Shown here: positions 22,243-36,049 of the stretch, in pieces
Layout: each line of letters starts with the position of its first letter
Numbering within the stretch: position 1 is the stretch's first letter
NCBI GenBank assembly: GCA_964384595.1
Contig: CAYLLY010000003.1
Span: forward strand, 198-64,197
DNA length: 64,000 bases
Source: an uncultured Nitrospirales bacterium
Lineage (GTDB): Bacteria; Nitrospirota; Nitrospiria; Nitrospirales; NS-4
Direction of reading: 5' to 3'
Program-made: the position numbers and the translations under genes
The notes under the pieces: generated by a model
The model's input: only the letters and a program-made list of their open reading frames with translations
The model's database searches: none
Told to the model about the DNA's origin: nothing

Positions 22243-22258
22243 TGGCATCGCCATTGCT
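22243..22258 (+). promoter_or_regulatory. Sigma-54 (-24/-12) promoter candidate for the peroxidase/Rieske/Mo-enzyme array
   Basis: TGGCAT-CGCCA-TTGCT (consensus TGGCAC-N5-TTGCW) with exact GG-N10-GC spacing. It sits in a 383-bp non-coding gap, about 130 nt upstream of the 22387 start. Confidence 0.55.
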
Positions 22259-22386
22259 GTATCCGAAGAAAAGGGAAAAGGGAAACCTGCAAGCCTTGGT
22301 TCGAGAAAGGGGGGATGGTGCAAGGAGGTCGGAGCAAGGAGCAGGTTCGAGAAAAGGCGTAAGACAGCCTGAAAGGGGGGAGTGAA

Positions 22387-23589
22387 GTGGAGAGAAAAAA
22401 GAACAAACTATGGACATTCGTCATTTTGCTGTTCGGTGTGGCGATTGTGGCGGCTATGACGATGGCGTGGACCGCCTGGGCCGGAAACAACGAGGGCAAG
22501 ACCCCTCGTCCGCTCGCGGCCCTGCCGCCGGGCCCGCACCCGGGACCGGCGGACAACCCAACCACTCCGGAGAAGGCCAAGCTGGGGGAGTTGCTCTTCT
22601 TCGAGCAGCGGTTGTCGGGTGACGGGAGCACGCCCTGCTCCAAGTGCCATGATCCGAAGCAGGGATGGGGAACGACGGACGATCTCTCGATCGGCTATCC
22701 GGGGACGCAGCACTTCCGCAACTCGCACACAGTCCTCAACACCGGTCACCTGAAGAAGTATTTCTGGGAGGGCCGGGCCACGAGTCTTGAGGCCCAGGCC
22801 GGCGGCGCGGCGGGCGGGCAATCGGCCGGCAATCTCCAGTTCGACATAGGGGAGGCCCGGATGCGCCAGGTGCCGGAGTACCGGGAGATGTTCATGAAGG
22901 TCTTCGGCGAACTGCCGACCTGGGACAACGCGGCGCGGGCGATCGCGGCCTTCCAGCGGACGTTGAACTCGGATCCAAAGGTAGTCCCGTTCGACCGTTA
23001 CATGAACGGCGACAAGAGCGCCATGACCCCGCAGCAGGTCAAGGGCATGGAGCTCTTCAAAGGCAAGGCCAACTGCATCGCCTGCCACGATGGGATGATG
23101 TTCACCGACGAGGACCATCACAATCTCGGCCTGCCGCGCAACCCGGCCTTCGACGACGATCCGCTCAGGCAGATCGAGTTGCGGTTCCGCATGAAGTCGA
23201 ACGGCATCCAGAACTACAACGAAGTGGACGAGGATTTGGGACTCTACATGGCGACCCACCGGACGCAGGACATCGGGCGGTTTCGCACCGAGAAGCTGCG
23301 TGAGTCGAAGCACACGGCGCCGTACATGCACAACGGCGTCTTTTCCACGCTGGAGGAAGTCGTCGAGTTCTACGACAAGGGCGGCGAGGAGCCGGGCAAG
23401 TTCAAGGGCGTCAAGGACCCGCTCATGAAACCGCTGGAGCTGACGGCCGACGAGAAGAAGGCATTGGTGGCGTTCCTCGAGGCGCTCAGCAGCCCTGAGA
23501 CTCCGTTCAAGGACATCAACCCGGTCCTGCCGAAGGACGGGATCGTCACGGTGGACAAAAAAGTCGTGCCGCTGCCGGCCGGCAAGTAG
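22387..23589 (+). CDS. Di-haem cytochrome c peroxidase (CCP/MauG family)
   Basis: GTG start after gggggag. N-terminal TM/signal. Two CxxCH motifs (CSKCHD, CIACHDG). Conserved APYMHNGVFSTLEEVVEFY segment. Confidence 0.9.
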   Translation: MERKKNKLWTFVILLFGVAIVAAMTMAWTAWAGNNEGKTPRPLAALPPGPHPGPADNPTTPEKAKLGELLFFEQRLSGDGSTPCSKCHDPKQGWGTTDDLSIGYPGTQHFRNSHTVLNTGHLKKYFWEGRATSLEAQAGGAAGGQSAGNLQFDIGEARMRQVPEYREMFMKVFGELPTWDNAARAIAAFQRTLNSDPKVVPFDRYMNGDKSAMTPQQVKGMELFKGKANCIACHDGMMFTDEDHHNLGLPRNPAFDDDPLRQIELRFRMKSNGIQNYNEVDEDLGLYMATHRTQDIGRFRTEKLRESKHTAPYMHNGVFSTLEEVVEFYDKGGEEPGKFKGVKDPLMKPLELTADEKKALVAFLEALSSPETPFKDINPVLPKDGIVTVDKKVVPLPAGK

Positions 23590-23607
23590 GTAGGAGGTAC
23601 AACGACG

Positions 23608-24231
23608 ATGGACGAGAAGGAAACCAAAGACAGCAAACTGAAGATGCTCAAGGAATTGGGCGAGGATGTGGGATGCATGACGCGCCGCAAGCTGCTCTTC
23701 CTGGGCGGCTTGGCCACGGCCACGACGCTGCTCCCGCCGGCCGTTGCGGACACGCTTGCCGCGGCGCCGAAGGCCAAGCCCAAGGAGGCGTCGAAGAAAC
23801 CGACGCCGGTGGCGATGCAGAGCACGCATTACCCGAGAAAGAAAGTCGGCAAATTGAGCGCGTTGAAACAGGACGAGCCGGTGAAGATCTCCTATCCGGC
23901 CGAGCATCCGAATCACAAGGCGCTGCTCATCAAACTGGGCGTGCCGGCGCTCGGCGGCGTGGGTCCGCAGAAGGACGTGGTGGCGTTCAGCGCGCTGTGC
24001 GTCCACCAGGGCGGACCGCTCGAAGACCGGTACAACGCGAAGGAAAAGATCATGGGGCCGTGCGAATTCCATCTCTCAATGTACGATCTCACGAAGCACG
24101 GGATAATCACGAGCGCGTCGGCGACCCAGAACCTCCCGCAAGTTGTGCTGGAGGTGGAAGGGGACGACATTTACGCGGTAGGGATGCAGGGGCTCATCTA
24201 CGGGTTCCCGGACAACCTGCTGCCCGTCTAG
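23608..24231 (+). CDS. TAT-exported Rieske [2Fe-2S] small subunit, AioB/IdrB-like
   Basis: RBS aggagg (23591-23596). Twin-arginine TRRKLLFLGGLATA. Rieske boxes CVHQGG and CEFH (C-x-H ... C-x2-H). 18-nt gaps to both neighbouring genes. Confidence 0.88.
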   Translation: MDEKETKDSKLKMLKELGEDVGCMTRRKLLFLGGLATATTLLPPAVADTLAAAPKAKPKEASKKPTPVAMQSTHYPRKKVGKLSALKQDEPVKISYPAEHPNHKALLIKLGVPALGGVGPQKDVVAFSALCVHQGGPLEDRYNAKEKIMGPCEFHLSMYDLTKHGIITSASATQNLPQVVLEVEGDDIYAVGMQGLIYGFPDNLLPV

Positions 24232-24249
24232 ACGTAAGGGGGTGAAGAC

Positions 24250-26919
24250 ATGAGTAAGGCAGGAATCAACGTATCATTCGCCACCGTCGTTCCGGAGGAC
24301 AAGGTCCCGCTGCCTCCGCCCGACGCGAAGATCTATCCCACGGCCTGTGACTATTGCGTCGTGGGGTGCGCGTACCGGGCGATCGTCTGGCCGGTCGGCA
24401 AGGAGGGCGGCCCGAAAGCCAATCAGAACGCCTACGGCGTGGATTTCCCGATCACCGAGGCGCAGGCCGGGAACTGGGCCACGCCGGAGCAGCACACGAT
24501 CGTGCTGAAAGACGGGGAGCCGCACCACTGCATCGTAATTCCGGCGATCAGCGAGCGGGTGAACCGCTCGGGCAACCACAGCATCCGGGGCGGGAACATC
24601 GCCCAGAAGTGTTACAGCCCGGTGAAGCCGACGTCGGACCGGCTCCAGACGCCGCTGATGCGGGTCCGGAATGTGCTGGTACCCATCTCCTGGGAGGACG
24701 CGACCACCATCACGGCCGAGGTGGGGAAGTATGTGCTCGACAAGTACGACGAGCTGGCCTACGGGGCCCAGACCTTCTCGTACCAGTTCTGGGAGAACAC
24801 CTACGCGATTACCAAGCTCCTGCTGCAATCCATCGAGACGCCATGCTGGGCGCACCACGACAAGCCGTCGGCCCAGGGCGACGCGGTCGGAATGGAGGAT
24901 GCGGGGATCGACACGTTCGGCTCGGCCTATGAGGACTTCAAGCTGGCCGAGGTGATCTATATCTCAGGGGCCGACCCCTACGAGAACCAGACCATCATGT
25001 TTACCGAGTGGATCATGGACGGGGGCGCCAAGTTGATCAATGCGCTGCCCCGCAAGTCCACGGGGGCCGCGTACGGCGAGAAGAACGGCGGCCTGTTCCT
25101 CCAGGTCATTCCGGGCACGGACCCTGTGCTGAACAACGCGATGTGCCGGGTCATCATCGAGAACGGCTGGGAGGACAAGGAGTTCATCGCCAAGTGGTGC
25201 GCCGACGACGAGGAGATTGACTGGGGCATGGGTCGCGGCGTCCGCAACACGCCCTGGCAGTGGCGGACGACGCGGTGGGGCGTGTCCTTCGCGAAGTGGA
25301 AGGACTGGCTCCTGAAGGACGAGTTCACGACGCTGGAATATGCGGAGAAGACGACGGGGGTTCCGCGCGCCAAGATCGTGAAGGCGGCGGAGATGCTGAC
25401 CGGCGGCGGGAAGGGCCCGCGCCCGAAGGCGTCCTTCCTCCATGAGAAAGGCAACTACTGGTCCAATAACTACCTGAGCTCGACCTCGTTCTGCAACCTG
25501 GGGCTCATCTGCGGCGCCGGAACGAAACCCGGGCAGCGGATCAGCCGGTGCGGCGGTCACCAGCGCGGTGGGATGGGCGCGGCGCCGTATCCCATCACGA
25601 AGACGCCGCAGCGGTTCGGGCGGATCGGCCGGCTGGCGATGGATGTGGACCGGTGGATCTTGAGCAACAACCTTCGGTTCCTGTGGGTGATCGGGGCCCA
25701 GAAGCTCGAGAACTCCTGCGCGAATGGCGCGCTGCACGACTATTTCCGGCAGCATGTGACCCTGTCGCCTCATCAGATTGACAGTACGGATCCGAAGCGG
25801 GCGATCGAAGTGCTCAAAGCGCGGGTGGACAACCAGGATATCGTGTGCGTCAACTCGGAAATCTATCTGCGGACGTTCGGCAACCAGTACGCGGACATCG
25901 TGATGCCGGCGGCGACCTGGGGCGAAGAGGACTTCACTCGCGCGCAAGGCGAGCGGGTGATGCGGATCTATTCCAAGTTCTACGACCCGCCGGGCGACGC
26001 GAAGCCCGATTGGTGGATCATCTCCCAGGTGGCGAAGAAAATGGGGTTCGAGGGGTACAACTGGAAGTCCTCCCAAGATGTCTTCAAGGAGGCGGCGCGC
26101 TTCTCGCGCGGCGGGATTCTGGAGTACGCGCCGTTGTTGCCCTACGCCAAGCTCAAAGGGAAGGAGCCCTATGAGTTGCTGCGGGAGCGGGGCGCCATGG
26201 GGTACCAGACGCCGCTGCGGCTGCACGACGGCGAGCTGATCGAGACCAAGCGGACCAACGACGAAACGGCGGCGCCCATGATCGAGACCCCGCAGGGGAT
26301 CTCGACCATGCAGAAGCGGCTCTCGGGATTTACCCGGCCGTCCGGCAAGGCGCTCCTGCACAAGGTGGACTGGAAGCTCTACAAGGACTTCCACGAGGCC
26401 ATCAGCCCCAAGAAGGAGAAGGGCGAGCTGTGGGTTACCAACGGGCGGGTCAACGAGATCTGGCAGTCGGTCTTCGACGACATGCGGAAACCGTACATCA
26501 TGCAGCGGTATCCGATGAACTTCGTCGAGATCCACCCGGAGGACGCGAAGGCGCGGGGGATCGAGAACGGCGACATCGTGTCCATGGAGAATGACGAGGT
26601 CTTTGTCCAGACCGGCGGCTTCTACTTCCTGCGGGATTCGGACGCGCTGTTCACGAGCCTGATGAAGAACGGCCACATCAAGACGACCAAGGGGTCGGCG
26701 ACGGCCATGGCGATCGTGACGGATGCCGTGCAGCCGGGGCTGGCATACCAGTACTTCCTGTGGCCGGGCGCGAGCGGCAACGCGCTGGCGCACAATGTGC
26801 CGGATCCGATCACCAATGCCCCGCGCTACAAGACGGGGAAGGCGGTGATCAAGAAGATCGGCACGCTGCCGGATCGCCTGAAGGCGCGCATCACGTGGGC
26901 GAACAAGAACGCGGTATAG
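24250..26919 (+). CDS. Molybdopterin (bis-MGD) oxidoreductase large subunit of the arsenite-oxidase (AioA) / iodate-reductase (IdrA) family
   Basis: 889 aa. N-terminal C-x2-C-x3-C (CDYCVVGCAY), as in the AioA 3Fe-4S site. No signal peptide, consistent with TAT hitch-hiking on the Rieske partner. MGD-binding-type segments (YISGADPYENQ, CGGHQRGG). Adjacent to the Rieske subunit. Confidence 0.9.
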   Translation: MSKAGINVSFATVVPEDKVPLPPPDAKIYPTACDYCVVGCAYRAIVWPVGKEGGPKANQNAYGVDFPITEAQAGNWATPEQHTIVLKDGEPHHCIVIPAISERVNRSGNHSIRGGNIAQKCYSPVKPTSDRLQTPLMRVRNVLVPISWEDATTITAEVGKYVLDKYDELAYGAQTFSYQFWENTYAITKLLLQSIETPCWAHHDKPSAQGDAVGMEDAGIDTFGSAYEDFKLAEVIYISGADPYENQTIMFTEWIMDGGAKLINALPRKSTGAAYGEKNGGLFLQVIPGTDPVLNNAMCRVIIENGWEDKEFIAKWCADDEEIDWGMGRGVRNTPWQWRTTRWGVSFAKWKDWLLKDEFTTLEYAEKTTGVPRAKIVKAAEMLTGGGKGPRPKASFLHEKGNYWSNNYLSSTSFCNLGLICGAGTKPGQRISRCGGHQRGGMGAAPYPITKTPQRFGRIGRLAMDVDRWILSNNLRFLWVIGAQKLENSCANGALHDYFRQHVTLSPHQIDSTDPKRAIEVLKARVDNQDIVCVNSEIYLRTFGNQYADIVMPAATWGEEDFTRAQGERVMRIYSKFYDPPGDAKPDWWIISQVAKKMGFEGYNWKSSQDVFKEAARFSRGGILEYAPLLPYAKLKGKEPYELLRERGAMGYQTPLRLHDGELIETKRTNDETAAPMIETPQGISTMQKRLSGFTRPSGKALLHKVDWKLYKDFHEAISPKKEKGELWVTNGRVNEIWQSVFDDMRKPYIMQRYPMNFVEIHPEDAKARGIENGDIVSMENDEVFVQTGGFYFLRDSDALFTSLMKNGHIKTTKGSATAMAIVTDAVQPGLAYQYFLWPGASGNALAHNVPDPITNAPRYKTGKAVIKKIGTLPDRLKARITWANKNAV

Positions 26920-26931: not shown

Positions 26932-26960
26932 TGGGGGACAGATTTGAAATCTGTCCCCCA
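26932..26960 (+). other. Perfect intergenic stem-loop (14-bp arms)
   Basis: TGGGGGACAGATTT-G-AAATCTGTCCCCCA, 13 nt after the Mo-subunit stop. No following T-tract. Confidence 0.8.
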
Positions 26961-26983: not shown

Positions 26984-27730
26984 ATGGGCAAGTATAGGTT
27001 TGTAATGGCGGCCGTGGCGGCGATGGGGCTCGTGGCGGCGCCGGCGGCATTCGGATATGAGGAAGCGGCTGTGAGCGACGGGGGCGCCGTCACCGGCAAG
27101 ATCAGCTTCAAGGGGAAGGTCCCTGAGCCACAGCATTTCCTGGTGCAGAAGAACCCTGACGTCTGCGGGAAGGAGCGCGATTTTCCGTTCGTGCGGGTGA
27201 AAGACGGAGCGCTCCAGAACGTGGTGGTGGTCATCGAAGGCATTGAAAAGGGGAAACCCTTCACGCACGCGCCGACCGAGTTTATCGGGAAGGAATGCGC
27301 GTTTCTTCCGTATGTGTCGTTCGTGACCAAGAAGGGCGTGGACGGGTGGCCGGTGTTCAAGATCGAGAACACGGACACCGTCATTCACAATCCCCACACC
27401 TATGCGATCGCGGGGGCGACGCGGGTGACGTTATTTAACGTCGCATTGCCGGAGAAAGGCTCCAAGCTGGAGAAGGAGCTGAAGAACAGGAAAGGCAACG
27501 TCATCAAGCTGGAGTGCGACCAGCACGACTTCATGCACAGTTGGACGCGGGTGGTGGAGCATCCCTACTTCGCGGTGGTGGACGACGGGGGCGCCTTCAA
27601 GATCGACGGCGTGCCGGCAGGCAAGTACAAGCTCGTGGCGTGGCATCCGATCCTGGGCGAGCAGACGGCGGAAGTAACCGTCGCGGCCAAGGGATCGGCG
27701 AAGGCGGATTTCACGTTCGCGGGAAAGTAA
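26984..27730 (+). CDS. Secreted cupredoxin-like protein with putative type-1 Cu site and C-terminal beta-sandwich domain (paralog of 5223-6173)
   Basis: Signal peptide MAAVAAMGLVAAPAAFG. Candidate Cu ligands NTDTVIH and CDQHDFM (C-x2-H-x2-M). C-terminus GGAFKIDGVPAGKYKLVAWHP...AKGSAKADFTF. Confidence 0.85.
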   Translation: MGKYRFVMAAVAAMGLVAAPAAFGYEEAAVSDGGAVTGKISFKGKVPEPQHFLVQKNPDVCGKERDFPFVRVKDGALQNVVVVIEGIEKGKPFTHAPTEFIGKECAFLPYVSFVTKKGVDGWPVFKIENTDTVIHNPHTYAIAGATRVTLFNVALPEKGSKLEKELKNRKGNVIKLECDQHDFMHSWTRVVEHPYFAVVDDGGAFKIDGVPAGKYKLVAWHPILGEQTAEVTVAAKGSAKADFTFAGK

Positions 27731-27748: not shown

Positions 27749-28918
27749 ATGAGTAGGCGAGGGAAAAATCTGATGGGGTTGGCGGCCTTCGTGGTCGTGT
27801 CGGGGCTTGCCTTGGTCGTGGCGCCGAGCGTCAATGCGGCCGAGACGGATCTGGGCCCTCTGCCGGCCTTGAAGGTGGATGAGAAGAAGGCGGAGCTGGG
27901 CAAGCTGCTGTTCTTCGACAAGCGAATGTCGGGCGATGCGGCGAGGTCTTGCAATGAGTGCCACAATCCCAAGAAAGGGTACGGAGACGATAGGGCGCTC
28001 TCGGAAGGGTATCCGGGGACCCTGCATTGGCGGAATGCCCAGACGCTGCTGAACGCGGCGCACCAGAAGGACCTCCACTGGCCGGGCTCGCAGGGCGACC
28101 TGGATACGTCCATCCGGACCCATGTGACCGGATGGATCCTCCTGAACGACGACGGGCGCGCCCTGGAAGAGCGCATGATCCTGGTTCCGGAGTATCGGAA
28201 CCGGTTCACGGAAGTGTACAAGATCAAACGGCATCCGATGTTCGGGCAGATCATGGGGGCGCTCTCGGAGTTCGTGAAGACGCTGGTGTCGGACCCGAAG
28301 AAAGTGCCGTTCGACCGGTACCTGGGCGGGGACCAATCGGCCTTGACGCCTCAACAAGTGAAAGGCCTGGAGCTGTTCAAGGGCAAGGCCAATTGCGCCG
28401 CCTGTCACAACGGCCCGCTGCTGAGCGACAAGGGCTACCACAACACGGGCGTTCCGACGAGCCCGGAGTTGTTGACGAATCCGCAGGTGCAGATCGCCGC
28501 TCGGCTCGAGAACATGACGATCGGCGTGTCGGGCTACGACACGATGATCGAGGACCTCGGCCGGTACATGTACACGAAGAACAAGAAGGACATCCGTAAG
28601 TTCCGGACACCGTCCTTGCGGGAGGCGAAGTACACGGCCCCGTACATGCATAACGGGACGCTCGCGACTCTGGCGGACGTGGTCGAGTTCTACAATGCGG
28701 GCGGCGGAAATGATGCGAATAAGGATGCGGCTCTCAAGCCGCTGGGGCTGACCGCGGAAGAGAAGGCGGCCCTGGTTGCCTTCCTGCAGAGCCTCAGCAG
28801 CGACACGTCGCCGTACGCGGATGCCCAGCCGGCGAAGTACGGCGAAGAGGGGTATCCGTATCAGGCGTTGAAGATCAATGAAGGCAAGCCCTGGACGAAG
28901 AAGGACCCGCGGGACTAA
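27749..28918 (+). CDS. Di-haem cytochrome c peroxidase (CCP/MauG family), second copy
   Basis: Signal peptide. CNECHNP and CAACHNG. APYMHNGTLATLADVVEFY. Confidence 0.9.
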   Translation: MSRRGKNLMGLAAFVVVSGLALVVAPSVNAAETDLGPLPALKVDEKKAELGKLLFFDKRMSGDAARSCNECHNPKKGYGDDRALSEGYPGTLHWRNAQTLLNAAHQKDLHWPGSQGDLDTSIRTHVTGWILLNDDGRALEERMILVPEYRNRFTEVYKIKRHPMFGQIMGALSEFVKTLVSDPKKVPFDRYLGGDQSALTPQQVKGLELFKGKANCAACHNGPLLSDKGYHNTGVPTSPELLTNPQVQIAARLENMTIGVSGYDTMIEDLGRYMYTKNKKDIRKFRTPSLREAKYTAPYMHNGTLATLADVVEFYNAGGGNDANKDAALKPLGLTAEEKAALVAFLQSLSSDTSPYADAQPAKYGEEGYPYQALKINEGKPWTKKDPRD

Positions 28919-29493: not shown

Positions 29494-29871
29494 ATGCCGA
29501 ACGGCGGTCGTTTGGCGAGGGTGGCATTCATGCTCGTGAGTCTCATGATTACGATCCTGACCGGGGTGGCCGTTCCGGCTGAAATCCATGAGGTGACCTT
29601 GCTGGACCGGGCGCCGTTCTACAGTTCCGGTCAGACGGTCAAGGTGACCGTCGGCGACACGGTCAGGTGGAAGAACCCGATGACGAAGGACGGCGCGACG
29701 CATACGGTGACGCAGATGGGATGCCTGACGGGCGATGCGTGCGAGTTCGATTCAGGGGTGTTGGCGCCGGGCCAGACATTCACCCACACGTTCACTGTGG
29801 CGGGCACGTTCACGTACCGCTGTCGCCTGCATGCGCTGATGGAGGGGGTCATCGTCGTCAATGGTCAATGA
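29494..29871 (+). CDS. Small blue-copper protein (plastocyanin/amicyanin-like cupredoxin)
   Basis: GDTVRWKNP...GATHTV and YRCRLHALMEG (C-x2-H-x2-M). Alternative start at ATG29530, which has a gaggg RBS. Confidence 0.82.
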   Translation: MPNGGRLARVAFMLVSLMITILTGVAVPAEIHEVTLLDRAPFYSSGQTVKVTVGDTVRWKNPMTKDGATHTVTQMGCLTGDACEFDSGVLAPGQTFTHTFTVAGTFTYRCRLHALMEGVIVVNGQ

Positions 29872-29905
29872 GAGGGAGTTGCCCGAGGAAAGGGGAGAGT
29901 TCGAG

Positions 29906-30451
29906 ATGAAGCGTACGTGGCTCAAGCGACCGAGGAAAGCGCTGGTGCTCGGACTGGCGGCGGCTCTTCTGGGCGGTCTGGTTGTGACGGCCGCCGCCCA
30001 GGTCTCAAGCATGACAGGGCAGGTGATGGATTTCGACAAGTCGGCGGGAACGCTGGAGGTCGAGCTCCAACGGGGGGACTTCGCCACGCTTTACCTGGAG
30101 AAGAATTCGCACTGGATCTTCCAGAAGGTGGATATCGGGGATCGGGTCCATGCGACGGTGGAGAAGCAGAACAACCGGTTGCTGGTCAAGGAGATCACCT
30201 TGCAGATCGGTCCCGGCGTGCAGATCGACTCGGTCCAGGGGGTCGTGACCAAAGTGAACCGCCGGGCCCATTCGCTCGAGGTCAAGACGGCGGCGGACAA
30301 GGAAGAGGTGCTCTACCTCGACCTGGACGCGCTGTCGGTGCTCGGGAAAGTGGCCGTGGGCGATCGGATCGAGGCCCGCGTGGAGACCGTGATCGAGGCG
30401 GGTGGTCCCAAAAAAGTGATTCGGGTCATCGTTGTGGGGAGCGGACCGTGA
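29906..30451 (+). CDS. Secreted hypothetical protein with two GDR(V/I)-type beta-rich repeats
   Basis: ATG29906 after aggggag. Signal LVLGLAAALLGGLVVTAAAQ. Repeats IGDRVHATVEKQNNRLLVKEITL and VGDRIEARVETVIEAGGPKKVIRVIVV. Confidence 0.68.
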   Translation: MKRTWLKRPRKALVLGLAAALLGGLVVTAAAQVSSMTGQVMDFDKSAGTLEVELQRGDFATLYLEKNSHWIFQKVDIGDRVHATVEKQNNRLLVKEITLQIGPGVQIDSVQGVVTKVNRRAHSLEVKTAADKEEVLYLDLDALSVLGKVAVGDRIEARVETVIEAGGPKKVIRVIVVGSGP

Positions 30452-30465: not shown

Positions 30466-30882
30466 ATGAAAGAGTTGACCCATCCGTCGCAGAGCGTGGT
30501 GGTGGCGGTCGTCGAGGATCTGCAACGGATCGCGCGGAGACTGATGACGATCTCCGAGGACGGGGTGGCCAGGGGAATGACCCATACCAACGGCGTCGAC
30601 TGCCTGATCGGGTTGGTTGATCGGATGGATTTTGCCTGCGCGTTGGCCGAGACCAAGAGCGGCGGTCAAACCGAGCCCGCAGAGACGGCCGGCGACCCCA
30701 CGGTGGGTGACCTGCCCGGACTCTGCCAAGACGTGCGCTGCAAGGCCGCCGACCTCGACCGGTTGAATCGGGACGGCGTGGGCGTGGCCTCTGAGATCGG
30801 AGAACTTGCGGCCGAGTTGATGCGCATCGAAGGTGAGCTTCGACGGGGGCTGGCTTCCGCAAGCGAGCCGCCGGCCGCCTGA
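30466..30882 (+). CDS. Hypothetical protein (no signal peptide)
   Basis: ATG30466 after gggagg (30453-30458). 138 aa. This is the in-frame tail of the longer track ORF 29917-30882, whose upstream part overlaps the better-supported 29906-30451 gene. Confidence 0.5.
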   Translation: MKELTHPSQSVVVAVVEDLQRIARRLMTISEDGVARGMTHTNGVDCLIGLVDRMDFACALAETKSGGQTEPAETAGDPTVGDLPGLCQDVRCKAADLDRLNRDGVGVASEIGELAAELMRIEGELRRGLASASEPPAA

Positions 30883-31076
30883 TCGTGAGAATCGGCGGGT
30901 GTCTGTTGAACTTGGGTCCGCGGGAACCACACGGACTGGCCTCCGGTTGCCCTGCGGATCTGCTGGTAGGGCCGGGCTTCACCCTCGCTGAAGGAGCGAG
31001 TACGCCCGGCTCCTACCGGCCATATTCTGAACGGCAGGCGATGCCGTCGGAGAGGAGCCAGAAGGGGAGAAGGGGA

Positions 31077-32918
31077 ATGGATGATCGCGTGAGAGCCGGA
31101 ACGAGGAACTTCCTCCCAATCGTGTGGATGTCGGCGCTCTTGCTCGGCGCCGTGATCGCGCTGTGGCCGCCGGGGGCGGCGCTGGCCCAGGAGACTCCGG
31201 CGGGACCAGGCGTGGAGTATCGGGACATCCCGTTCATGGGGAGCCGGAACCTCATCTGGATCGTCGCGCAGCTCCATCTCCTGTTGGCAGGGTTCGTGCT
31301 GGGCGTGCCGATCTTCGCGTGGGTGTGCGAGATCGTGGGGGTCAGAACGAAGGACCCGCGCTACGACAAGCTGGCCAAGGAGTTCACCAAGCTGCTCACC
31401 TCGTCCTACGCCACGACCGCGCTGTTCGGCGGCATCTTGTTGTTCCTGCTGATCGGCTCCTACCCGAAGCTGATGTCCTATCTCGCGGACGTCTTCTATC
31501 CGTCGTTCCTCGTCTATTGCGCGCTGTTCCTGCTGGAGACCGCGACCCTCTACCTCTACTGGTACGGCTGGGATTCGATGCAGGGGAGCAAGAAAGGCAT
31601 GCATCTGTTCCTCGGGTTCCTCCTCAACGTCTTCGCGTTCTTCATCATGATCGTGCCGAACTCCTGGGCGACCTTCCAGGCCAGCCCTGTCGTGATCGCG
31701 GAAGGCGATATGTGGGCGAAGGCCTGGGCGGCGACGTGGAACCCGACCTGGTGGCCGGTGAACATCCACCGCCTGATCGCGAACGTGGTGCTGGGCGGCT
31801 TCATCTGCGGGGCCTACGCCGGGCTCAAATACCTGATGGCTCAGAGCCCGGAAGAACGGGTGCACTACGACTGGATGGGGTACGTCGGGAATTTCATCGG
31901 CGTGTTCGGGATGCTGCCCCTCCCGTTCGCGGGCTACTGGCTGATGCGGGAGATCTACCAGTACAACCAGCAGATGGGCATCACCCTCATGGGCGGCTTC
32001 CTCTCCTGGCTGTTCATCCTGCAGGCCATGTTGATCGGCATCCTGTTCCTGGGGGCGAACTATTATTTCTGGCTCGGCATCATGTATCGCATTCCGGGTT
32101 CCGAAGCCAAGTACCGCAAGCCGATCCTGACGATGCTGGTCATCCTGCTCGTGTGCCTGGGGGTCTGGATGACCCCGCACTCCCTGGTCGCCAGCCTGGA
32201 AGAGGCCCGCAAGATGGGCGGGACTCATCACCCCTTGCTGGGCGTCTTGGGCGTGATGTCCGCGAAGATGACCGTGGCGAATCTCATGATCCTGGTGACG
32301 TTCATGAGCTTCGTCATGTACTGGCGGGCCGGCAAACAGGAGACCGCGCGTTGGGCAAAGGCCGCCAAGGTGGGCCAGTGGGCCATCCTGGGGATCGCGG
32401 TGATCGTGGTGCTGGTGCTGGGGGTGTGGGGCTACTTCGTGCCGGCCATCACGCGGATCAACTACTTTTCCACGACGCAGGTGCTGGTGGTGCTGTTTGT
32501 CTTGTTGACGATCACGCCCCTGACCGGGCTCTTACTCAAGAGCGCGAAGACGACCACGGAGATGATCTGGGGCGTCATGCCGGCGCGGGCGGGCTACGCG
32601 CTCGTCTTGAACGCCATCATGGTCATCCTCCTCATGACTCTGATGGGATACGCGCGCTCGTCGTCCAGGGTTCACTGGCATGTCTATGGGGTCATACAGG
32701 ATACGTCCCAGTACGCCTATTCCCCGGCGCTGGGCTACGCGGCCGCGTTGATGTCGCTATGCACGTTCCTCTTTTGCCTGCTGGTGGCGTTCATCTTCTG
32801 GGTGGCCTCGCTGGGTGGGGAGAAGAAAGGCCCTGTGACGGTGATGGCGGCTGAGAGAGAGAAGGAAGTGGTGACGCCGCCGGCCGGCGCGGCGCCGGTT
32901 ACAGCGGTTCGGGAATAG
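31077..32918 (+). CDS. Cytochrome bd-like oxidase, CydA-related subunit with extra C-terminal TM helices (no CydB partner in the locus)
   Basis: ATG31077 after gaaggggagaagggg. CydA-like N-terminus (NLIWIVAQLHLLLAGFVLGVPIFAW) and NPTWWPVNIHRLIANVVLGG. About 13-14 hydrophobic segments by eye, versus 9 in canonical CydA. The canonical GRQPW string is absent; SRVHWHVYG sits near the corresponding C-terminal region. Confidence 0.8.
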   Translation: MDDRVRAGTRNFLPIVWMSALLLGAVIALWPPGAALAQETPAGPGVEYRDIPFMGSRNLIWIVAQLHLLLAGFVLGVPIFAWVCEIVGVRTKDPRYDKLAKEFTKLLTSSYATTALFGGILLFLLIGSYPKLMSYLADVFYPSFLVYCALFLLETATLYLYWYGWDSMQGSKKGMHLFLGFLLNVFAFFIMIVPNSWATFQASPVVIAEGDMWAKAWAATWNPTWWPVNIHRLIANVVLGGFICGAYAGLKYLMAQSPEERVHYDWMGYVGNFIGVFGMLPLPFAGYWLMREIYQYNQQMGITLMGGFLSWLFILQAMLIGILFLGANYYFWLGIMYRIPGSEAKYRKPILTMLVILLVCLGVWMTPHSLVASLEEARKMGGTHHPLLGVLGVMSAKMTVANLMILVTFMSFVMYWRAGKQETARWAKAAKVGQWAILGIAVIVVLVLGVWGYFVPAITRINYFSTTQVLVVLFVLLTITPLTGLLLKSAKTTTEMIWGVMPARAGYALVLNAIMVILLMTLMGYARSSSRVHWHVYGVIQDTSQYAYSPALGYAAALMSLCTFLFCLLVAFIFWVASLGGEKKGPVTVMAAEREKEVVTPPAGAAPVTAVRE

Positions 32919-32935: not shown

Positions 32936-33532
32936 ATGACGGAGACTCAGATCCTGCAAGCCCTCGGGTTGAGCATCATAGGATTGGGGGGCGCCGTGTT
33001 CCTGTTCGTGAATGCCCGTTTTCTCCGCGTGACGGCGTTCGTCGCCATCGTGCTGGGCACGTTTTCCCTCGTGGCGCTGGGCGTGCCGCAGATGGCCTCC
33101 ATGCCCCCCGTCGTGGAGAAGTTCGACCTGGCCGCGATCAAGGACAAGAGAGAGTTGGCGGGGATCGGGCAGAAAATCTTCTTCGGCGCGGGGCAGTGCG
33201 CGCTGTGCCACACCATCGGGAGCAGTGAGGGCCGATGTCCGGACTTGAAAGGCGTCGGCGCCAAGCTCACGCGCGAGTTCATTTTTGAGAGCCTCACACA
33301 ACCGCAAGCGTTCACCTACATGGATTACGAGCATGTGGGACCAGCCAAGGGGTTTCCGGCTAAGATGCCCTACATTAATAAAAAACCGATCGGCCTGAAC
33401 AAGAACGAGATACTGGCCGTGATCGCGTTTCTCCAGAACATGTCCGGTGAGGAGGTCACGGTGGATCTGGCCGAGCTCGAGGCCCCGAAGGATGTGGCGG
33501 CGGGACCAGGTGATAAGGCGAAGCCCTTGTGA
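32936..33532 (+). CDS. Membrane-anchored mono-haem cytochrome c
   Basis: Two N-terminal hydrophobic helices, then CALCHTIG (CxxCH). Confidence 0.82.
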   Translation: MTETQILQALGLSIIGLGGAVFLFVNARFLRVTAFVAIVLGTFSLVALGVPQMASMPPVVEKFDLAAIKDKRELAGIGQKIFFGAGQCALCHTIGSSEGRCPDLKGVGAKLTREFIFESLTQPQAFTYMDYEHVGPAKGFPAKMPYINKKPIGLNKNEILAVIAFLQNMSGEEVTVDLAELEAPKDVAAGPGDKAKPL

Positions 33533-33554
33533 TGGGAAACCGAGGAGAGACGGT

Positions 33555-34277
33555 ATGAAGCGTTCAGCATTGGCGTTAAAAGGCCTCATCCTGCTGGCGG
33601 CCGTTTTTGCGTTCCTGCAATACGGCCTGCCGTTCTTCACCGCGCCCCTGCCCATGAGCCTGATCTGGCTCTATTTGTTCACGACCGCCGTGGGGGTCAT
33701 CGTGTTTGGGACGCTCAGCGGGGAATCCACGGAAGCCTTCTTAGGGCCGATCTTTCGATTTTTGAGCGGAGAGGGCATGAACGGAGTGGCCAAGCATGCG
33801 CGGCTCTTGATCCTCGTGCTCCTGCCCCTTTTGGTGGGCTGGCAGACGTACAGCGGGCTGGTCCCGAGCACGGAGCCGCCCGCCGAGAACCGCACGATCC
33901 ATCCGGCGCCGCCCGGGGAGTTCGTCGGATTGGCCAATCCCGTGCCGAATACGCCGGAGAACGTGATGATGGGGAAGGGCTTGTACGCCGCCTTTTGTGC
34001 GCCGTGCCATGGGGCCAAATTCAACGGCAACGGCCCCGCCGCCGACGGCTTCAACCCGCCACCGGCCAATTTCGCCGATCCCGGCACCATCGCCATGCTC
34101 CAGGAGTCGTACCTCTTCTGGCGTATCAAGAAGGGTGGGGTGGGGCTGTCGGTCGAGGGCCATCCGTGGAAATCGGCCATGCCGCGCTGGGAAGTGGAGC
34201 TGCCGGACGATTGGATATGGAAGATCATCATGGCGGAATACGAAGGGGCCGGGCAAAAGCCCCGGACGTGGGAGTAA
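33555..34277 (+). CDS. Membrane-anchored mono-haem cytochrome c
   Basis: ATG33555 after gaggagag. Three hydrophobic helices, then CAPCHGAKFNG. YLFWRIKKGG...MPRW resembles the 28952 cytochrome. Confidence 0.82.
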   Translation: MKRSALALKGLILLAAVFAFLQYGLPFFTAPLPMSLIWLYLFTTAVGVIVFGTLSGESTEAFLGPIFRFLSGEGMNGVAKHARLLILVLLPLLVGWQTYSGLVPSTEPPAENRTIHPAPPGEFVGLANPVPNTPENVMMGKGLYAAFCAPCHGAKFNGNGPAADGFNPPPANFADPGTIAMLQESYLFWRIKKGGVGLSVEGHPWKSAMPRWEVELPDDWIWKIIMAEYEGAGQKPRTWE

Positions 34278-34280
34278 GCG

Positions 34281-35228
34281 ATGGCTGTGTGGTTCCGATA
34301 TCTGGTTGCCGGATGTACGATTGCGGCGGTGGGGTTTCTGAGCGCGCCGCCGGCGCACTCCCAGGAGAGCGTGGTGGTCCGCGTGAAGCTGGTCCAGGGA
34401 GAGGTGCCGACCGACCCCCTGGCGCTGGTCTGGGGCACGGTTCCGGCGGCGGAGTTTCCGCTGTCTCCGCAGGTCCACTGGCAGAAACGCATCGGGTCGG
34501 TGACGGCCAAGTCCGTCAAGGTCCGGGGGGTTCACAACAACAAGCAGATTGCGTTCATGGTGGAGTACGCCGATCCGGCCCAGGACCCCGCCGACGCCGC
34601 CGCGCTGGAGTTCATGGTGGGGGACAAGAAGGCTCATTTCGCGCACGGGCAGCCCATGGTTCAGGTGGAAGGCGGGCCGGTCAACATCTGGTACTGGCGG
34701 AACGACGTCCCGGGAGCCGCGGACATGTCCGCGCAGGGCTTCGGGACGCTGGCAAAGCAGGCCCAGCAGGACGTCCGGGCGAAGGGCGTCTGGAAGGACG
34801 AGAAGACCAAGATCACGTTCAAGGAGCGCAAGCAGAGCCTGCGGAAAGACCCCCAGGGGGAATTGGTGAAAGACCCCAAAACCGGGGACCCCGTGGTCGA
34901 TGAAGAGACAAAGGTGGTCGAGCAGGACGTGAGCGGCGTGTGGCGCGTCGTTTTCACCCGCGCGCTGACCACGACCGACAAGGAGGACGTCCAGATCCAG
35001 ACGGGGACGTTCCCCAACGTCGCCTTCGCAGTGTGGGACGGCAAGAAGCTGGAGAGCGGCGATCTGAAGGAGTCCGGCTCGCAAAAGGCCATCAGTTCCT
35101 GGTGGTTCTTCAACGCGGAGCCGCCGCCCGACTATTCGATCTATCTGTACGGCTTGGTGGCGGTGGTGCTCGCGGGTGGTGTCGAATTCATCATCATCCG
35201 CAAGACCAGAAAGGGGCAGCAGACATGA
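34281..35228 (+). CDS. EB_dh/DOMON-like (ethylbenzene-dehydrogenase gamma / NxrC-like) putative haem-b protein with C-terminal TM anchor
   Basis: Signal peptide. Pattern VKVRGVHNNKQIAFMVEYADPAQD...ALEFMVGD...VNIWYWRND, typical of the EB_dh fold as I remember it. C-terminal helix IYLYGLVAVVLAGGVEFIII. The family call is by pattern only. Confidence 0.6.
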   Translation: MAVWFRYLVAGCTIAAVGFLSAPPAHSQESVVVRVKLVQGEVPTDPLALVWGTVPAAEFPLSPQVHWQKRIGSVTAKSVKVRGVHNNKQIAFMVEYADPAQDPADAAALEFMVGDKKAHFAHGQPMVQVEGGPVNIWYWRNDVPGAADMSAQGFGTLAKQAQQDVRAKGVWKDEKTKITFKERKQSLRKDPQGELVKDPKTGDPVVDEETKVVEQDVSGVWRVVFTRALTTTDKEDVQIQTGTFPNVAFAVWDGKKLESGDLKESGSQKAISSWWFFNAEPPPDYSIYLYGLVAVVLAGGVEFIIIRKTRKGQQT

Positions 35229-36049
35229 GGGCACAGCACGTTGTGGGAATCGCCGCCGCCGCGGCCGTGGCGGCCACAGTCGGACTCGCGGGCTGCGCGC
35301 TGTTCGAGAGCGAGCAGGTCGCCACGGGGCGCAAGCTCTTCGAGTACTATTGCCTGCACTGTCACGGCGAAAAAGGAATGGGGAACGGGTTCAACGCGAA
35401 GCATCTCGACCCCAAACCGCGGGATCTCACGGACAAAGATGAAGAGTTCATGGTGAAGATGTCCAACGAGGAGATCTATGAGGTGATTTCCCGCGATATG
35501 ATGTCCCAGGAGGAGTTCGACGAGAAATACGGCGAAGACACGGACAAGCTGTTCACGCCGCCGAACATGCCCTCGTTCAAGCACACCCTCTCCGATGCGG
35601 AGCGCTGGTCGCTGGTCGCGTTCGTGCGGACGTTGCACAAGAACGCCGCGCCCAGGGTGGAGATTCCGGCCCAGGCCGCCAAGGAGCGGCCCAAGTTCCC
35701 GCCCGCGCCCAAGCCGACGCTTGCCTCCGCGCCCGCGGACCTGGAGAAGCTGGCCGCGAAGGGAAAGACCCTCTATGAGGATAAATACGGGTGCCATGCC
35801 TGCCACGCGATCGGCGCGAAGGGGGGGATCGTCGGCCCCGAACTCGACCGGGCGGGGTTCCGCTTGAACGCCGCGTGGGTGTACCGGTGGATCAAGTATC
35901 CGCAGGCCATGAAGCCGCACACCAAGATGCCGAACCTGGGCGTGTCGGACGACGACGCGCTGGCGATCACGGCCCATCTCGGGACCCTGAAGGCGGAGCC
36001 TCCGGCCGAGCCGTCCGCCGCGCCCACGAAACAGGCCTCGGCGCAGTGA
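35225..36049 (+). CDS. Di-haem c-type cytochrome lipoprotein
   Basis: ATG35225 overlaps the previous stop (ATGA). Lipobox GLAGC. Two CxxCH motifs (CLHCHGEKG, CHACHAIG). Confidence 0.85.
   Translation: MRAQHVVGIAAAAAVAATVGLAGCALFESEQVATGRKLFEYYCLHCHGEKGMGNGFNAKHLDPKPRDLTDKDEEFMVKMSNEEIYEVISRDMMSQEEFDEKYGEDTDKLFTPPNMPSFKHTLSDAERWSLVAFVRTLHKNAAPRVEIPAQAAKERPKFPPAPKPTLASAPADLEKLAAKGKTLYEDKYGCHACHAIGAKGGIVGPELDRAGFRLNAAWVYRWIKYPQAMKPHTKMPNLGVSDDDALAITAHLGTLKAEPPAEPSAAPTKQASAQ

What the first reader, a model, noticed from the sequence alone, without database searches (positions are those of the whole stretch)
22243..36049. One promoter-to-end array couples a periplasmic Mo enzyme directly to a terminal oxidase with no quinone-reactive module
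Seen: fifteen consecutive + strand genes from 22387 to 36049. The largest internal gap is 194 nt (30883-31076) and several gaps are 18-33 nt or overlaps. A 383-bp non-coding region carrying a sigma-54-type promoter precedes the array. I saw no convincing T-tract terminator inside it. Every predicted redox carrier is periplasmic or periplasm-facing (Rieske, 5 CxxCH proteins with 8 haem sites, 2 cupredoxin-type proteins). I see no bc1/ACIII-like or NuoH-like quinone module.

Inference: the locus could encode a self-contained chain, substrate to Mo/Rieske to c/Cu carriers to bd-like oxidase, with the peroxidases handling peroxide. A dedicated chemolithotrophic 'substrate oxidase' of this composition has not, to my knowledge, been described.
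Basis: inference. Interest (0 to 1): 0.85.

Follow-up and report, generated by a model that had tools for sequence, protein, structure and literature searches.

The report
Iodate-reductase-like genes beside Nitrospira oxidase
The array is two known respiratory modules placed side by side, an iodate-reductase-type molybdenum enzyme with its peroxidases and the cytochrome "bd-like" putative oxidase of Nitrospira; it is probably a pair of electron outlets rather than a new substrate-to-oxygen chain, but the pairing is unreported and hints that nitrite-oxidiser relatives may respire iodate.

Summary
The gene array is real, with small corrections. There are 14 called genes, not 15. There are 6 haem-c proteins with 9 CxxCH sites, not 5 with 8. 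The array does not end at 36049.

The Mo enzyme is not a novel substrate oxidase. By phylogeny, signature residues and peroxidase synteny it belongs with the IdrABP1P2 iodate reductases: about 50% identity to Idr-type proteins and about 30% to true arsenite oxidase. It sits in a small Nitrospirota/Nitrospinota sister clade.

The bd-like part is the highly conserved Nitrospira "bd-like_2" module (OR-N2 type plus alt_NxrC_1), at 77-91% identity. In six other Nitrospiraceae contigs it lies directly downstream of a cytochrome bc complex.

Each module occurs without the other in most relatives. The exact junction recurs in one other species (L099). Idr plus bd-like adjacency also arose independently in a Rokubacteria MAG and a Phycisphaerae MAG.

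The 194-nt gap holds a conserved, terminator-like hairpin. The sigma-54 promoter is well supported.

Best reading: two cytochrome-c-fed terminal sinks, an iodate-type oxyanion reductase and an O2 reductase, sharing periplasmic carriers. I class it as a new variant of known kinds, of moderate interest.

The parts
11307..15073 (+). dCache/HAMP histidine kinase (11307-13715) and sigma-54-dependent response regulator (13697-15073); likely regulators of the Idr-like module
   Evidence: Pfam. The same pair lies directly upstream of the Idr-like cluster in L096 and of idr in Azonexus NCP973.
18650..20125 (+). Porin_5 outer-membrane porin; belongs to the conserved Idr-like island
   Evidence: Pfam. 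A porin lies immediately upstream of ccp-Rieske-Mo in L096.
22243..22257 (+). sigma-54-type promoter motif TGGCATcgccaTTGC, 130 nt before the first gene
22387..23589 (+). g01, di-haem cytochrome c peroxidase (IdrP-like)
   Evidence: PF03150, E = 7e-41, 2 CxxCH. A ccp lies upstream of Rieske-Mo in 78 of 80 related loci.
23608..24231 (+). g02, TAT-exported Rieske subunit (IdrB/AioB-like)
   Evidence: PF00355; TIGR02694 at 122 bits, above the cut-off of 95.65. The RRKLLF twin-arginine motif and the CxH...CxxH motifs are visible in the sequence.
24250..26919 (+). g03, Mo-bisPGD catalytic subunit with an N-terminal 3Fe-4S domain (IdrA-like)
   Evidence: PF18465, PF00384 and PF01568. Identity is 27-30% to AioA and 48-52% to IdrA of Azonexus and M. 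iodofontis. Tree; signature residues.
26932..26960 (+). perfect 13-bp hairpin just after the Mo gene stop, with no U tract
   Evidence: dG = -24.8 kcal/mol, z = -3.2. L099 has a different hairpin at the same position.
26984..27730 (+). g04, secreted type-1-copper (cupredoxin-like) protein fused to a CarboxypepD_reg-like domain; candidate redox partner of the Mo enzyme
   Evidence: H135, N136, C178-x2-H181-x2-M184 are invariant in 37 homologues next to Idr-type genes. Pfam gives weak hits. No PDB or NCBIfam match.
27749..28918 (+). g05, second di-haem cytochrome c peroxidase (IdrP-like)
   Evidence: PF03150, E = 2e-35.
28952..29419 (+). g06, mono-haem cytochrome c
   Evidence: PF13442 and PF00034. 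It is conserved after the second ccp in L003, L008, L015 and L099. It is 45-51% identical to the cytochrome c that precedes bd-like_1 in canonical Nitrospira clusters.
29494..29871 (+). g07, small cupredoxin (amicyanin/plastocyanin-like)
   Evidence: PF00127; amicyanin model in NCBIfam.
29861..30451 (+). g08, secreted protein of unknown function (weak CusF-like hit)
   Evidence: Found only in the window and in L099 (82% identity).
30466..30882 (+). g09, 138-aa protein with no signal peptide and unknown function; always precedes this version of the bd-like gene
   Evidence: Homologues lie directly upstream of bd-like in L086, L098 and L099.
30883..31076 (+). conserved intergenic element with invariant boxes GACTGGCCTCCGGT and GGTAGGGCCGGG...CCTACCG; strong hairpin at 30962-31020; terminator/attenuator-like
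   Evidence: It is 95.7% identical to L098, while the flanking coding sequences are 74-78% identical. In L099 the hairpin is followed by U6 and lies 23 nt before the ATG.
31077..32918 (+). g10, cytochrome bd-like protein (OR-N2 / NIDE0901 / bd-like_2 type), putative cytochrome c:O2 oxidoreductase
   Evidence: PF01654 covers only profile positions 3-241. Similarity to CydA structures stops after about TM5, and the equivalents of the two haem-ligand histidines aligned there are kept. It is 77-91% identical to Nitrospira proteins. Literature.
32936..33532 (+). g11, membrane-anchored mono-haem cytochrome c
33555..34277 (+). g12, membrane-anchored mono-haem cytochrome c
34281..35228 (+). g13, EB_dh / DMSO-reductase type II gamma-like haem b protein with a C-terminal anchor (alt_NxrC_1 type)
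   Evidence: PF09459 and TIGR03477. Literature.
35225..36049 (+). g14, di-haem cytochrome c
   Evidence: The same genes follow the module in L086.

Best explanation
The region is a composite respiratory island of a Nitrospiraceae bacterium, made of two modules that are each conserved on their own.

Module 1 runs from the sigma-54 promoter at 22243 to about 30451. It is an Idr-type periplasmic molybdoenzyme cluster. It encodes a peroxidase, a TAT-exported Rieske protein, the Mo/3Fe-4S subunit, a type-1-copper protein, a second peroxidase and a small cytochrome c. A cupredoxin and g08 follow.

Module 2 consists of g09, a conserved leader hairpin and genes 31077-36049. It is a copy of the Nitrospira 'bd-like_2' putative terminal oxidase (OR-N2 type). 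It comes with two anchored cytochromes c, the alt_NxrC_1-type haem b subunit and a di-haem cytochrome c.

Most likely mechanism (inferred):
- Periplasmic cytochrome c and cupredoxins are reduced by enzymes encoded elsewhere, namely nitrite oxidoreductase or a bc complex.
- These carriers feed two alternative sinks. One is the Mo enzyme, which reduces iodate or a closely related oxyanion. The other is the bd-like complex, which reduces O2.
- The two peroxidases remove the H2O2-type by-product of the Mo enzyme.
- The O2 may be ambient micro-oxic O2, or O2 released from the iodine intermediate as in the Pseudomonas SCT model.
- Expression of the oxidase part from the upstream promoter would depend on read-through of the conserved hairpin.

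Shown here: gene content, family placement, synteny patterns, promoter motif and hairpin. Inferred: the substrate, the direction of electron flow and O2 reduction by the bd-like complex.
For: Idr rather than Aio:
- In an NJ tree of 87 sequences the window falls in the non-Aio clade (bootstrap 100). That clade contains IdrA of the iodate-respiring isolate Azonexus hydrophilus NCP973 and of Ca. M. iodofontis.
- At 13 columns that separate AioA from core Idr, the window has the Idr state at 9. These include D204, D211 and R439, which lie next to the Aio substrate-site residues.
- The ccp-Rieske-Mo order is found in 78 of 80 related loci. It is absent from four arsenic-context aio loci. This synteny is the literature's own criterion for Idr.

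Direction of electron flow in the family:
- Published models put quinol, then bc1, then cytochrome c upstream of IdrAB.
- Nine Idr-type loci carry Rieske and cytochrome b genes just downstream of idrA.

The oxidase module:
- It is 77-91% identical to Nitrospira proteins whose genes lie in the CIII_1 / bd-like_1 / bd-like_2 / alt_NxrC_1 cluster.
- The OR-N family lacks the quinol site.

Evidence for a functional link:
- The identical gene order across the junction is kept in L099, at 76-87% nucleotide identity.
- Idr-type genes are immediately followed by bd-like, cytochrome c and EB_dh genes in a Rokubacteria MAG and a Phycisphaerae MAG (L016, L014).
- The SCT model includes a terminal O2 reductase.
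- Aerobes carrying idr reduce iodate under O2 limitation.

Promoter.
Against: - The window's Mo subunit lies in a sister clade (bootstrap 76-99), not in the core clade that holds the tested and predicted IdrA proteins. Its substrate is therefore untested.
- I could not place it relative to the 'unknown' Halorubrum clade of Reyes-Umana et al., some of whose hosts oxidise arsenite.
- The gene order is P-B-A-x-P, not P2-P1-B-A.
- No OR-N enzyme has been shown biochemically to reduce O2.
- Most sister-clade loci with enough flank lack the bd-like module (L003, L008, L015, L100, L101).
- L098 has g09 and bd-like behind an acyl-CoA dehydrogenase gene instead.
- The junction hairpin looks like a terminator.
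- No NXR, bc complex or chlorite dismutase is in the window, so the electron source is unknown.
Confidence: 0.5

Rival explanations
1. The Mo/Rieske enzyme oxidises a periplasmic substrate (arsenite or an unknown compound). It passes electrons through cytochrome c and copper carriers straight to the bd-like oxidase. This would be a quinone-independent lithotrophic chain.
For: - AioAB is the only structurally characterised relative.
- Three of the four Aio substrate-site residues are kept (H203, R433, H437).
- The protein passes the NCBIfam arsenite-oxidase model.
- OR-N enzymes are said to sit in operons with alternative electron donors.
- An arsenite oxidase has been annotated in Ca. N. defluvii.
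- The window's clade is outside the core Idr clade.
Against: - Identity to AioA is only 27-30%, and the protein falls outside the Aio clade (bootstrap 100).
- The NCBIfam model also accepts a true IdrA, so it does not discriminate.
- Two peroxidases are retained in synteny, and these are absent from aio loci.
- No ars or aio accessory genes are in the window.
- The signature residues are of the Idr type.
- The modules are separate in most relatives.
Confidence: 0.15
2. The bd-like module is not acting as an oxidase here. Instead it is a membrane electron-entry or docking complex that supplies the periplasmic Mo reductase. It would play the part that Rieske/cytochrome b complexes play next to idr in other genomes.
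For: - Nine Idr-type loci have a bc-type complex at the position where the window, L014 and L016 have the bd-like module.
- The literature proposes quinone-pool interaction and NXR anchoring for bd-like plus alt_NxrC modules.
- O2 reduction by OR-N enzymes has never been demonstrated.
Against: - No recognisable quinol-binding Q-loop is present. Similarity to CydA ends after the haem-binding helices.
- The orthologous module in Nitrospira lies next to a bc complex that already does the quinol step, and it is the only candidate complex IV in many genomes.
Confidence: 0.15
3. The adjacency has no functional meaning. A mobile Idr-like island landed upstream of a second copy of the oxidase module, and the two are transcribed and regulated independently.
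For: - The two modules differ sharply in conservation. The best Mo relatives, apart from the partial Mo gene on L099 (92.5% over 577 aa) and near-identical cluster members, are 64-67% identical. The bd-like relatives are 77-91% identical.
- Each module occurs alone in relatives.
- The junction carries a conserved terminator-like hairpin.
- The intergenic region is more conserved than the flanking genes, which suggests its own regulatory function.
Against: - The order is kept in a second species (L099).
- Idr plus bd-like adjacency arose independently in two other phyla.
- In L099 only 23 nt separate the hairpin tail from the start codon. That leaves no room for a separate promoter after it.
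Confidence: 0.2

Closest known systems
IdrABP1P2 dissimilatory iodate reductase (Pseudomonas sp. SCT, Denitromonas iodatirespirans IR-12, Azonexus hydrophilus NCP973)
   Same: - AioA-like Mo/3Fe-4S subunit and TAT-exported Rieske subunit.
- Two di-haem peroxidases in the same cluster, and a small cytochrome c next to it.
- Sigma-54 activator and histidine kinase upstream, with a sigma-54 motif before the first gene.
- 48-52% identity, and shared signature residues.
   Different: - It belongs to a sister clade found only in Nitrospirota and Nitrospinota.
- The gene order is P-B-A-cupredoxin-P rather than P2-P1-B-A.
- It has an extra type-1-copper protein, a cupredoxin and a porin.
- It is followed by an oxidase module.
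- Its activity is untested.
AioAB arsenite oxidase (Alcaligenes faecalis 1G8K, Rhizobium NT-26 4AAY)
   Same: - Same fold family and cofactors.
- Periplasmic, with cytochrome c or azurin as redox partner.
- Sigma-54-dependent two-component control.
- A quinone-independent route to a terminal oxidase.
   Different: - Identity is only 27-30%, and it forms a separate clade.
- E203 is replaced by Asp, and neighbouring residues are of the Idr type.
- Peroxidases are present.
- There is no arsenic gene context.
Nitrospira CIII_1 / bd-like_1 / bd-like_2 / alt_NxrC_1 cluster (putative complex III-IV supercomplex; OR-N1/OR-N2 CydAA')
   Same: The five genes 31077-36049 match the bd-like_2, two cytochrome c, alt_NxrC_1 and di-haem c part. 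Identity is 82-89% for bd-like and 42-87% for the partners.
   Different: - There is no bc complex and no OR-N1 (bd-like_1) partner upstream.
- It is preceded instead by g09, a conserved hairpin and the Idr-like cluster.
- It is followed by a multicopper oxidase instead of UbiA.
(Per)chlorate reduction islands (PcrABCD/ClrABC with chlorite dismutase), where O2 released in the periplasm is respired by a high-affinity oxidase. This comparison is from my own knowledge and is echoed.
   Same: A periplasmic Mo oxyanion reductase produces a reactive halogen or oxygen by-product. Dedicated detoxifying and O2-consuming partners are needed.
   Different: It belongs to a different DMSO-reductase subfamily. 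No chlorite dismutase is encoded in the window. Here the oxidase is encoded in the same array.

Membership tests
Idr iodate reductase (IdrABP1P2) | The catalytic subunit groups with IdrA rather than AioA in a phylogeny | tested here: inconclusive
   The window is inside the non-Aio clade (bootstrap 100). It lies in a sister clade (76-99) to the core clade (98) that holds Azonexus NCP973 and M. iodofontis IdrA. This was an NJ tree.
Idr iodate reductase (IdrABP1P2) | Two di-haem cytochrome c peroxidase genes clustered with idrBA | tested here: met
   g01 and g05 are both PF03150. The order is P-B-A-x-P instead of P2-P1-B-A. The ccp-Rieske-Mo order is present in 78 of 80 related loci and absent from four aio loci.
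Idr iodate reductase (IdrABP1P2) | TAT-exported Rieske small subunit and a Mo subunit with an N-terminal 3Fe-4S domain | tested here: met
   RRKLLF motif and Rieske motifs in g02. C33-x2-C36-x3-C40 and PF18465 in g03.
Idr iodate reductase (IdrABP1P2) | Residues that distinguish core Idr from AioA | tested here: met
   9 of 13 discriminating columns carry the Idr state, 2 carry the Aio state and 2 carry neither. D204, D211 and R439 are of the Idr type. Only four AioA sequences were used.
Idr iodate reductase (IdrABP1P2) | Iodate-dependent activity or growth | not testable with these tools
   This needs enzyme assays or cultures.
Aio arsenite oxidase | Membership of the AioA clade and close sequence similarity | tested here: not met
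   27-30% identity and outside the Aio clade. The protein passes TIGR02693 (415 bits against a cut-off of 359). So does the Azonexus IdrA (426 bits), so that model does not discriminate.
Aio arsenite oxidase | Substrate-site residues H195, E203, R419 and H423 (A. faecalis numbering; residue list from my own knowledge of Ellis et al. 2001) | tested here: not met
   H203, R433 and H437 are kept. The Glu is Asp211, which is invariant in the whole Idr-type set.
Aio arsenite oxidase | Arsenic gene context (ars genes, aioXSR) and no peroxidases | tested here: not met
   No ars genes were found in the window. Peroxidases are present. A histidine kinase and sigma-54 regulator are present, but these are shared with idr loci.
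OR-N2-type cytochrome bd-like putative oxidase (NIDE0901 / bd-like_2) | CydA-like N-terminal haem-binding helices | tested here: met
   PF01654 covers profile positions 3-241 only. The alignments to 5doq_A and 9r2g_A keep the equivalents of the two haem-ligand histidines.
OR-N2-type cytochrome bd-like putative oxidase (NIDE0901 / bd-like_2) | No quinol-binding Q-loop (E. coli K252 and E257) | tested here: inconclusive
   No alignable Q-loop exists beyond about residue 250, which is consistent with the family description. Absence of similarity does not prove absence of quinol reactivity.
OR-N2-type cytochrome bd-like putative oxidase (NIDE0901 / bd-like_2) | Synteny with two cytochromes c and an EB_dh (alt_NxrC) subunit, and orthology to the Nitrospira proteins | tested here: met
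   77-91% identity to Nitrospira proteins, with the same four partner genes. A crude hydropathy count gives 12 membrane segments, against the 14 reported.
OR-N2-type cytochrome bd-like putative oxidase (NIDE0901 / bd-like_2) | O2 reduction with cytochrome c as donor | not testable with these tools
   This has never been shown biochemically for any OR-N enzyme.
Single transcription unit (one promoter to end) | No internal terminator or promoter, and a defined end | tested here: not met
   A conserved terminator-like hairpin lies in the 194-nt gap, with a U6 tail in L099. There is no defined end at 36049. Read-through is not excluded.

The most novel reading that the evidence does not exclude
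Nitrite-oxidiser lineages (Nitrospirota and Nitrospinota) carry their own clade of Idr-like enzymes. These would let them use iodate instead of O2 as acceptor for cytochrome c reduced by nitrite oxidoreductase. That amounts to nitrite oxidation coupled to iodate reduction without the quinone pool. The co-encoded bd-like oxidase would consume any O2 or oxidant released.

A still bolder version is that the enzyme runs backwards. It would oxidise hypoiodous acid or iodide to iodate and pass the electrons to the oxidase.
Probability: 0.15. Interest if true: 0.85.

Novelty: new variant of a known kind. Interest (0 to 1): 0.5.

Why it matters
- Iodate has been proposed as the missing oxidant for nitrite oxidation seen in oxygen-depleted ocean layers.
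- I found no paper in the searchable library that links idr genes to Nitrospira- or Nitrospina-type organisms. Two recent comparative genomics papers on these groups do not mention iodate or arsenite oxidase.
- A distinct Idr-like clade confined to these phyla, wired into the cytochrome c level of the chain, gives a concrete gene set to test. In one lineage it is physically joined to the putative complex IV.
- The recurrent Idr plus bd-like adjacency also bears on two open points. One is whether iodate reduction releases O2 or peroxide that must be respired. The other is what OR-N 'bd-like' complexes actually do.
- Annotation pipelines currently name all these proteins 'arsenate reductase (azurin)/arsenite oxidase'. 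This hides the distinction between Idr and Aio.

Tried and rejected
- An Rfam search of 21500-38000 at E <= 1 found nothing.
- The junction hairpin is not a dispersed repeat.
- No sigma-54 motif (at most 2 mismatches with intact GG/GC) lies in the 194-nt gap or upstream of the porin gene. The box TGGCCTCCGGTTGC has the wrong spacing.
- The consensus terminator scan finds nothing significant in the window array.
- The metagenome scan with g09 returned only one short contig.
- PDB and NCBIfam have no match for g04.
- An AlphaFold model of g04 from a two-sequence alignment was too poor to use (pLDDT 41.8), so no fold search was run. The cupredoxin call rests on invariant ligand residues only.
- NCBIfam has no Idr-specific model.
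- I considered that the window's bd-like gene might be the sole, relocated copy rather than a paralogue. The tree nests it among genes in the canonical context, so this stays open.
- I rejected a true arsenite oxidase assignment (see membership tests).
- I rejected 'promoter-to-end operon ending at 36049'.

Full report
**Observation**

The window is identical to a JGI metagenome contig (sample 3300009444). On the + strand between 22387 and 36049 the gene caller and my own reading agree on 14 genes. In order they are:
- a di-haem peroxidase, a TAT-exported Rieske protein, and an AioA-like Mo subunit with the 3Fe-4S 'Rieske_3' domain;
- a 248-aa secreted protein (g04), a second di-haem peroxidase, a mono-haem cytochrome c and a cupredoxin;
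- two proteins of unknown function (g08 and g09);
- a Cyt_bd_oxida_I-like membrane protein, two anchored cytochromes c, an EB_dh haem b protein and a di-haem cytochrome c (Pfam).

The 194-nt gap holds if the bd-like gene starts at 31077, which homology in L098 and L099 supports. The counts need small corrections: 14 genes rather than 15, and 6 CxxCH proteins with 9 sites rather than 5 with 8. The run does not stop at 36049. The next gene overlaps by 4 nt, a multicopper oxidase follows, and genes stay on the + strand to about 63.6 kb. No bc1, ACIII or Nuo-like module is in the window.

**Promoter**

The motif TGGCATcgccaTTGC at 22243-22257 differs from the sigma-54 consensus at one base. Window-wide counts at 2 mismatches are not enriched. 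However, of the six + strand hits with at most one mismatch, five lie 51-130 nt upstream of a + strand start codon (p about 5e-5). The same motif occurs at the homologous position in three other loci: the 66%-identical relative L096, the idr locus of Azonexus hydrophilus NCP973, and an Ensifer aioBA locus. Each of those follows a sigma-54 activator gene. The window has a dCache histidine kinase and a sigma-54 response regulator at 11307-15073. I regard the promoter as well supported.

**What the Mo enzyme is**

- The closest solved structures are arsenite oxidases, but only at about 30% identity.
- Genomes and metagenomes hold a large family at 50-67% identity.
- Against plasmids the hits split cleanly. 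The Idr type scores 42-50% and includes the plasmid of the iodate-respiring isolate Azonexus NCP973. The Aio type scores 26-30%.
- In an NJ tree of 87 sequences with 100 bootstraps, all non-Aio sequences form one clade (100). A core clade of 78 includes Azonexus IdrA and the Ca. Methylomirabilis iodofontis IdrA (98).
- The window groups with Nitrospirota and Nitrospinota sequences in a sister clade. Support is 99, or 76 after adding four more loci.
- At 13 alignment columns that separate AioA from core Idr, the window has the Idr state at 9. These include three positions next to the Aio substrate residues.
- The peroxidase-Rieske-Mo order, which the literature uses to tell Idr from Aio, is present in 78 of 80 related loci. 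It is absent from four aio loci that sit among arsenic genes.
- NCBI's arsenite-oxidase model accepts both the window protein and a true IdrA, so automatic names are uninformative.

I conclude that the enzyme is Idr-like. It is a new sub-clade, its gene order is P-B-A-x-P, and its substrate is untested.

**g04**

In 37 homologues found beside Idr-type genes, the residues H135, N136, C178, H181 and M184 are invariant. This is the His...Cys-x2-His-x2-Met pattern of type-1 copper sites; that interpretation is from my own knowledge. A paralogue at 5253-6173 follows a 1638-aa multicopper-oxidase-like gene. A structure prediction from two sequences failed.

**What the bd-like part is**

The protein has very many relatives at 77-91% identity in Nitrospira and Nitrospiraceae. 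In six contigs with enough flank (L082, L083/L084, L085, L087/L088, L089) the orthologous five-gene block follows the same upstream set. That set is a CarboxypepD_reg protein (in some), cytochrome c, bd-like_1, cytochrome c, Rieske, cytochrome b and a 282-aa protein. [quoted passage not shown] It is also described as an OR-N1/OR-N2 CydAA' oxidase.

The OR-N family lacks the quinol site and is thought to oxidise cytochrome c. [quoted passage not shown] In the window, similarity to solved CydA structures ends after the haem-binding helices. The same module, however, normally sits next to a quinone-reactive bc complex, and the idea of a cytochrome-c-fed bd-like oxidase is not new.

**Are the two modules a unit?**

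Against a unit:
- The nearest Idr-like loci with enough flank keep genes g01-g06 but have no bd-like gene within reach. These are L003 (Nitrospinota), L008 and L015 (Nitrospiraceae), and L100/L101.
- L098 has g09, the intergenic region and the bd-like gene directly behind an acyl-CoA-dehydrogenase-like gene.

For a unit:
- L099 comes from another metagenome and represents a different species. Nucleotide identity is 87% in the Idr part, 76% across g07-g09 and 82% in the oxidase part.
- L099 has exactly the same order: Mo, g04, peroxidase, cytochrome c, cupredoxin, g08, g09, bd-like, cytochrome c.
- L086 shares g09 through the downstream multicopper oxidase and beyond, but ends inside g09.
- In two other phyla, Idr-type genes of the core clade are followed within about 220 nt by bd-like, cytochrome c and EB_dh genes. 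These are L016 (Rokubacteria) and L014 (Phycisphaerae).
- Nine further Idr-type loci carry Rieske and cytochrome b genes in that position.

Idr-type clusters are thus repeatedly joined to a membrane complex that works at the cytochrome c level. That complex is usually a bc complex and sometimes an OR-N complex.

**The junction**

The 194-nt gap contains a hairpin at 30962-31020 (-42.5 kcal/mol, z = -5.4). The gap is 95.7% identical to L098, while the flanking coding sequences are 74% and 78% identical. Two sequence boxes are invariant across the window, L098, L099 and L086. In L099 the hairpin is followed by CAUUUUUUAU, is picked up by the terminator scan, and ends 23 nt before the start codon. 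In the window the tail is CAUAUUCU. This looks like a conserved terminator or attenuator through which transcription must read to express the oxidase. It is neither an Rfam family nor a dispersed repeat.

**Mechanism**

Published models have IdrAB taking electrons from cytochrome c, which is reduced through bc1. IdrAB reduces iodate to HIO, and the peroxidases remove H2O2. In the Pseudomonas SCT model, O2 released from HIO is respired by a terminal oxidase. Aerobic bacteria carrying idr reduce iodate when O2 is limiting.

I therefore read the array as two cytochrome-c-fed sinks that share small carriers (g04, g06, g07), with the reductant coming from enzymes encoded elsewhere. The direction of flow, the substrate and O2 reduction by the bd-like complex are all inferred. 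All remain possible and are scored separately.

**Novelty**

Both modules belong to described kinds. New here are:
- the Nitrospirota/Nitrospinota-specific Idr-like clade, with its copper protein and altered gene order;
- its fusion to a copy of the putative complex IV;
- the recurrence of Idr plus bd-like adjacency;
- the conserved junction element.

I found no paper in the searchable library that links idr to these nitrite-oxidiser phyla. Iodate has been proposed as an oxidant for anaerobic nitrite oxidation. An 'arsenite oxidase' has been annotated in Ca. N. defluvii. I could not check which type that enzyme is.

Noticed in passing
window 21-6173: A perfect sigma-54 motif (TGGCACctcggTTGC, 21-35) lies 75 nt before a 1638-aa multicopper-oxidase-like gene (110-5026). 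That gene is followed by a g04 paralogue (5253-6173; 32% identity, with C-x2-H-x2-M kept). A 1635-aa homologue lies just upstream of the Idr-like cluster in L100.
   Followed up: partly
window 48505-48519, 49328-49342, 52915-52929: Three more sigma-54-type motifs (1 mismatch each) lie 51-110 nt upstream of + strand genes starting at 48570, 49452 and 53001 (the last is a radical SAM/SPASM gene). This suggests a sizeable sigma-54 regulon in this stretch.
   Followed up: partly
window 36618-37751: A two-domain multicopper oxidase (377 aa) scores below the nitrite-reductase model cut-off. It is 90% identical and in the same position after the bd-like module in L086.
   Followed up: partly
window 41116-42327: A sulfite-oxidase-family Mo enzyme (Oxidored_molyb plus Mo-co_dimer) lies in the same + strand run. 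A homologue also lies downstream in L086 and a few genes after the Idr-like cluster in L100/L101.
   Followed up: no
window 26932-26960; L099 about 1750-1785: A perfect 13-bp hairpin lies right after the Mo gene stop. L099 has a different hairpin at the same place. The position is conserved but not the sequence, so it may be an mRNA stabiliser or a partial terminator.
   Followed up: partly
L098 713-901 versus window 30883-31076: The intergenic region is 95.7% identical between the two organisms, while the genes on either side are 74-78% identical. Upstream of g09 there is no homology at all.
   Followed up: yes
L019 12689-17946 (also L021, L025, L029, L031, L032, L067, L070): Idr-type clusters are followed on the same strand by cytochrome c, a 701-aa FAD/4Fe-4S oxidoreductase, Rieske, cytochrome b and cytochrome c. 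This looks like a dedicated bc-type complex attached to idr.
   Followed up: partly
36 of the related loci (for example L016 6547-7191, L073 6382, L003 12831-13481): The g04-type copper protein is a frequent, conserved neighbour of Idr-type genes. It is not part of the idrABP1P2 nomenclature and has no Pfam, NCBIfam or PDB assignment of its own.
   Followed up: partly
window 24250-26919; L090 8986-11664: NCBIfam TIGR02693 (an 'equivalog' model for arsenite oxidase large subunit) passes its cut-off for both the window protein and the IdrA of a proven iodate respirer. Public annotations therefore conflate the two functions.
   Followed up: yes
window 20142-22003: A BFD-like [2Fe-2S] domain protein (338 aa) and a 278-aa protein of unknown function lie between the porin and the sigma-54 promoter. 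In L096 the porin abuts the peroxidase gene directly, so these two genes look like an insertion.
   Followed up: no
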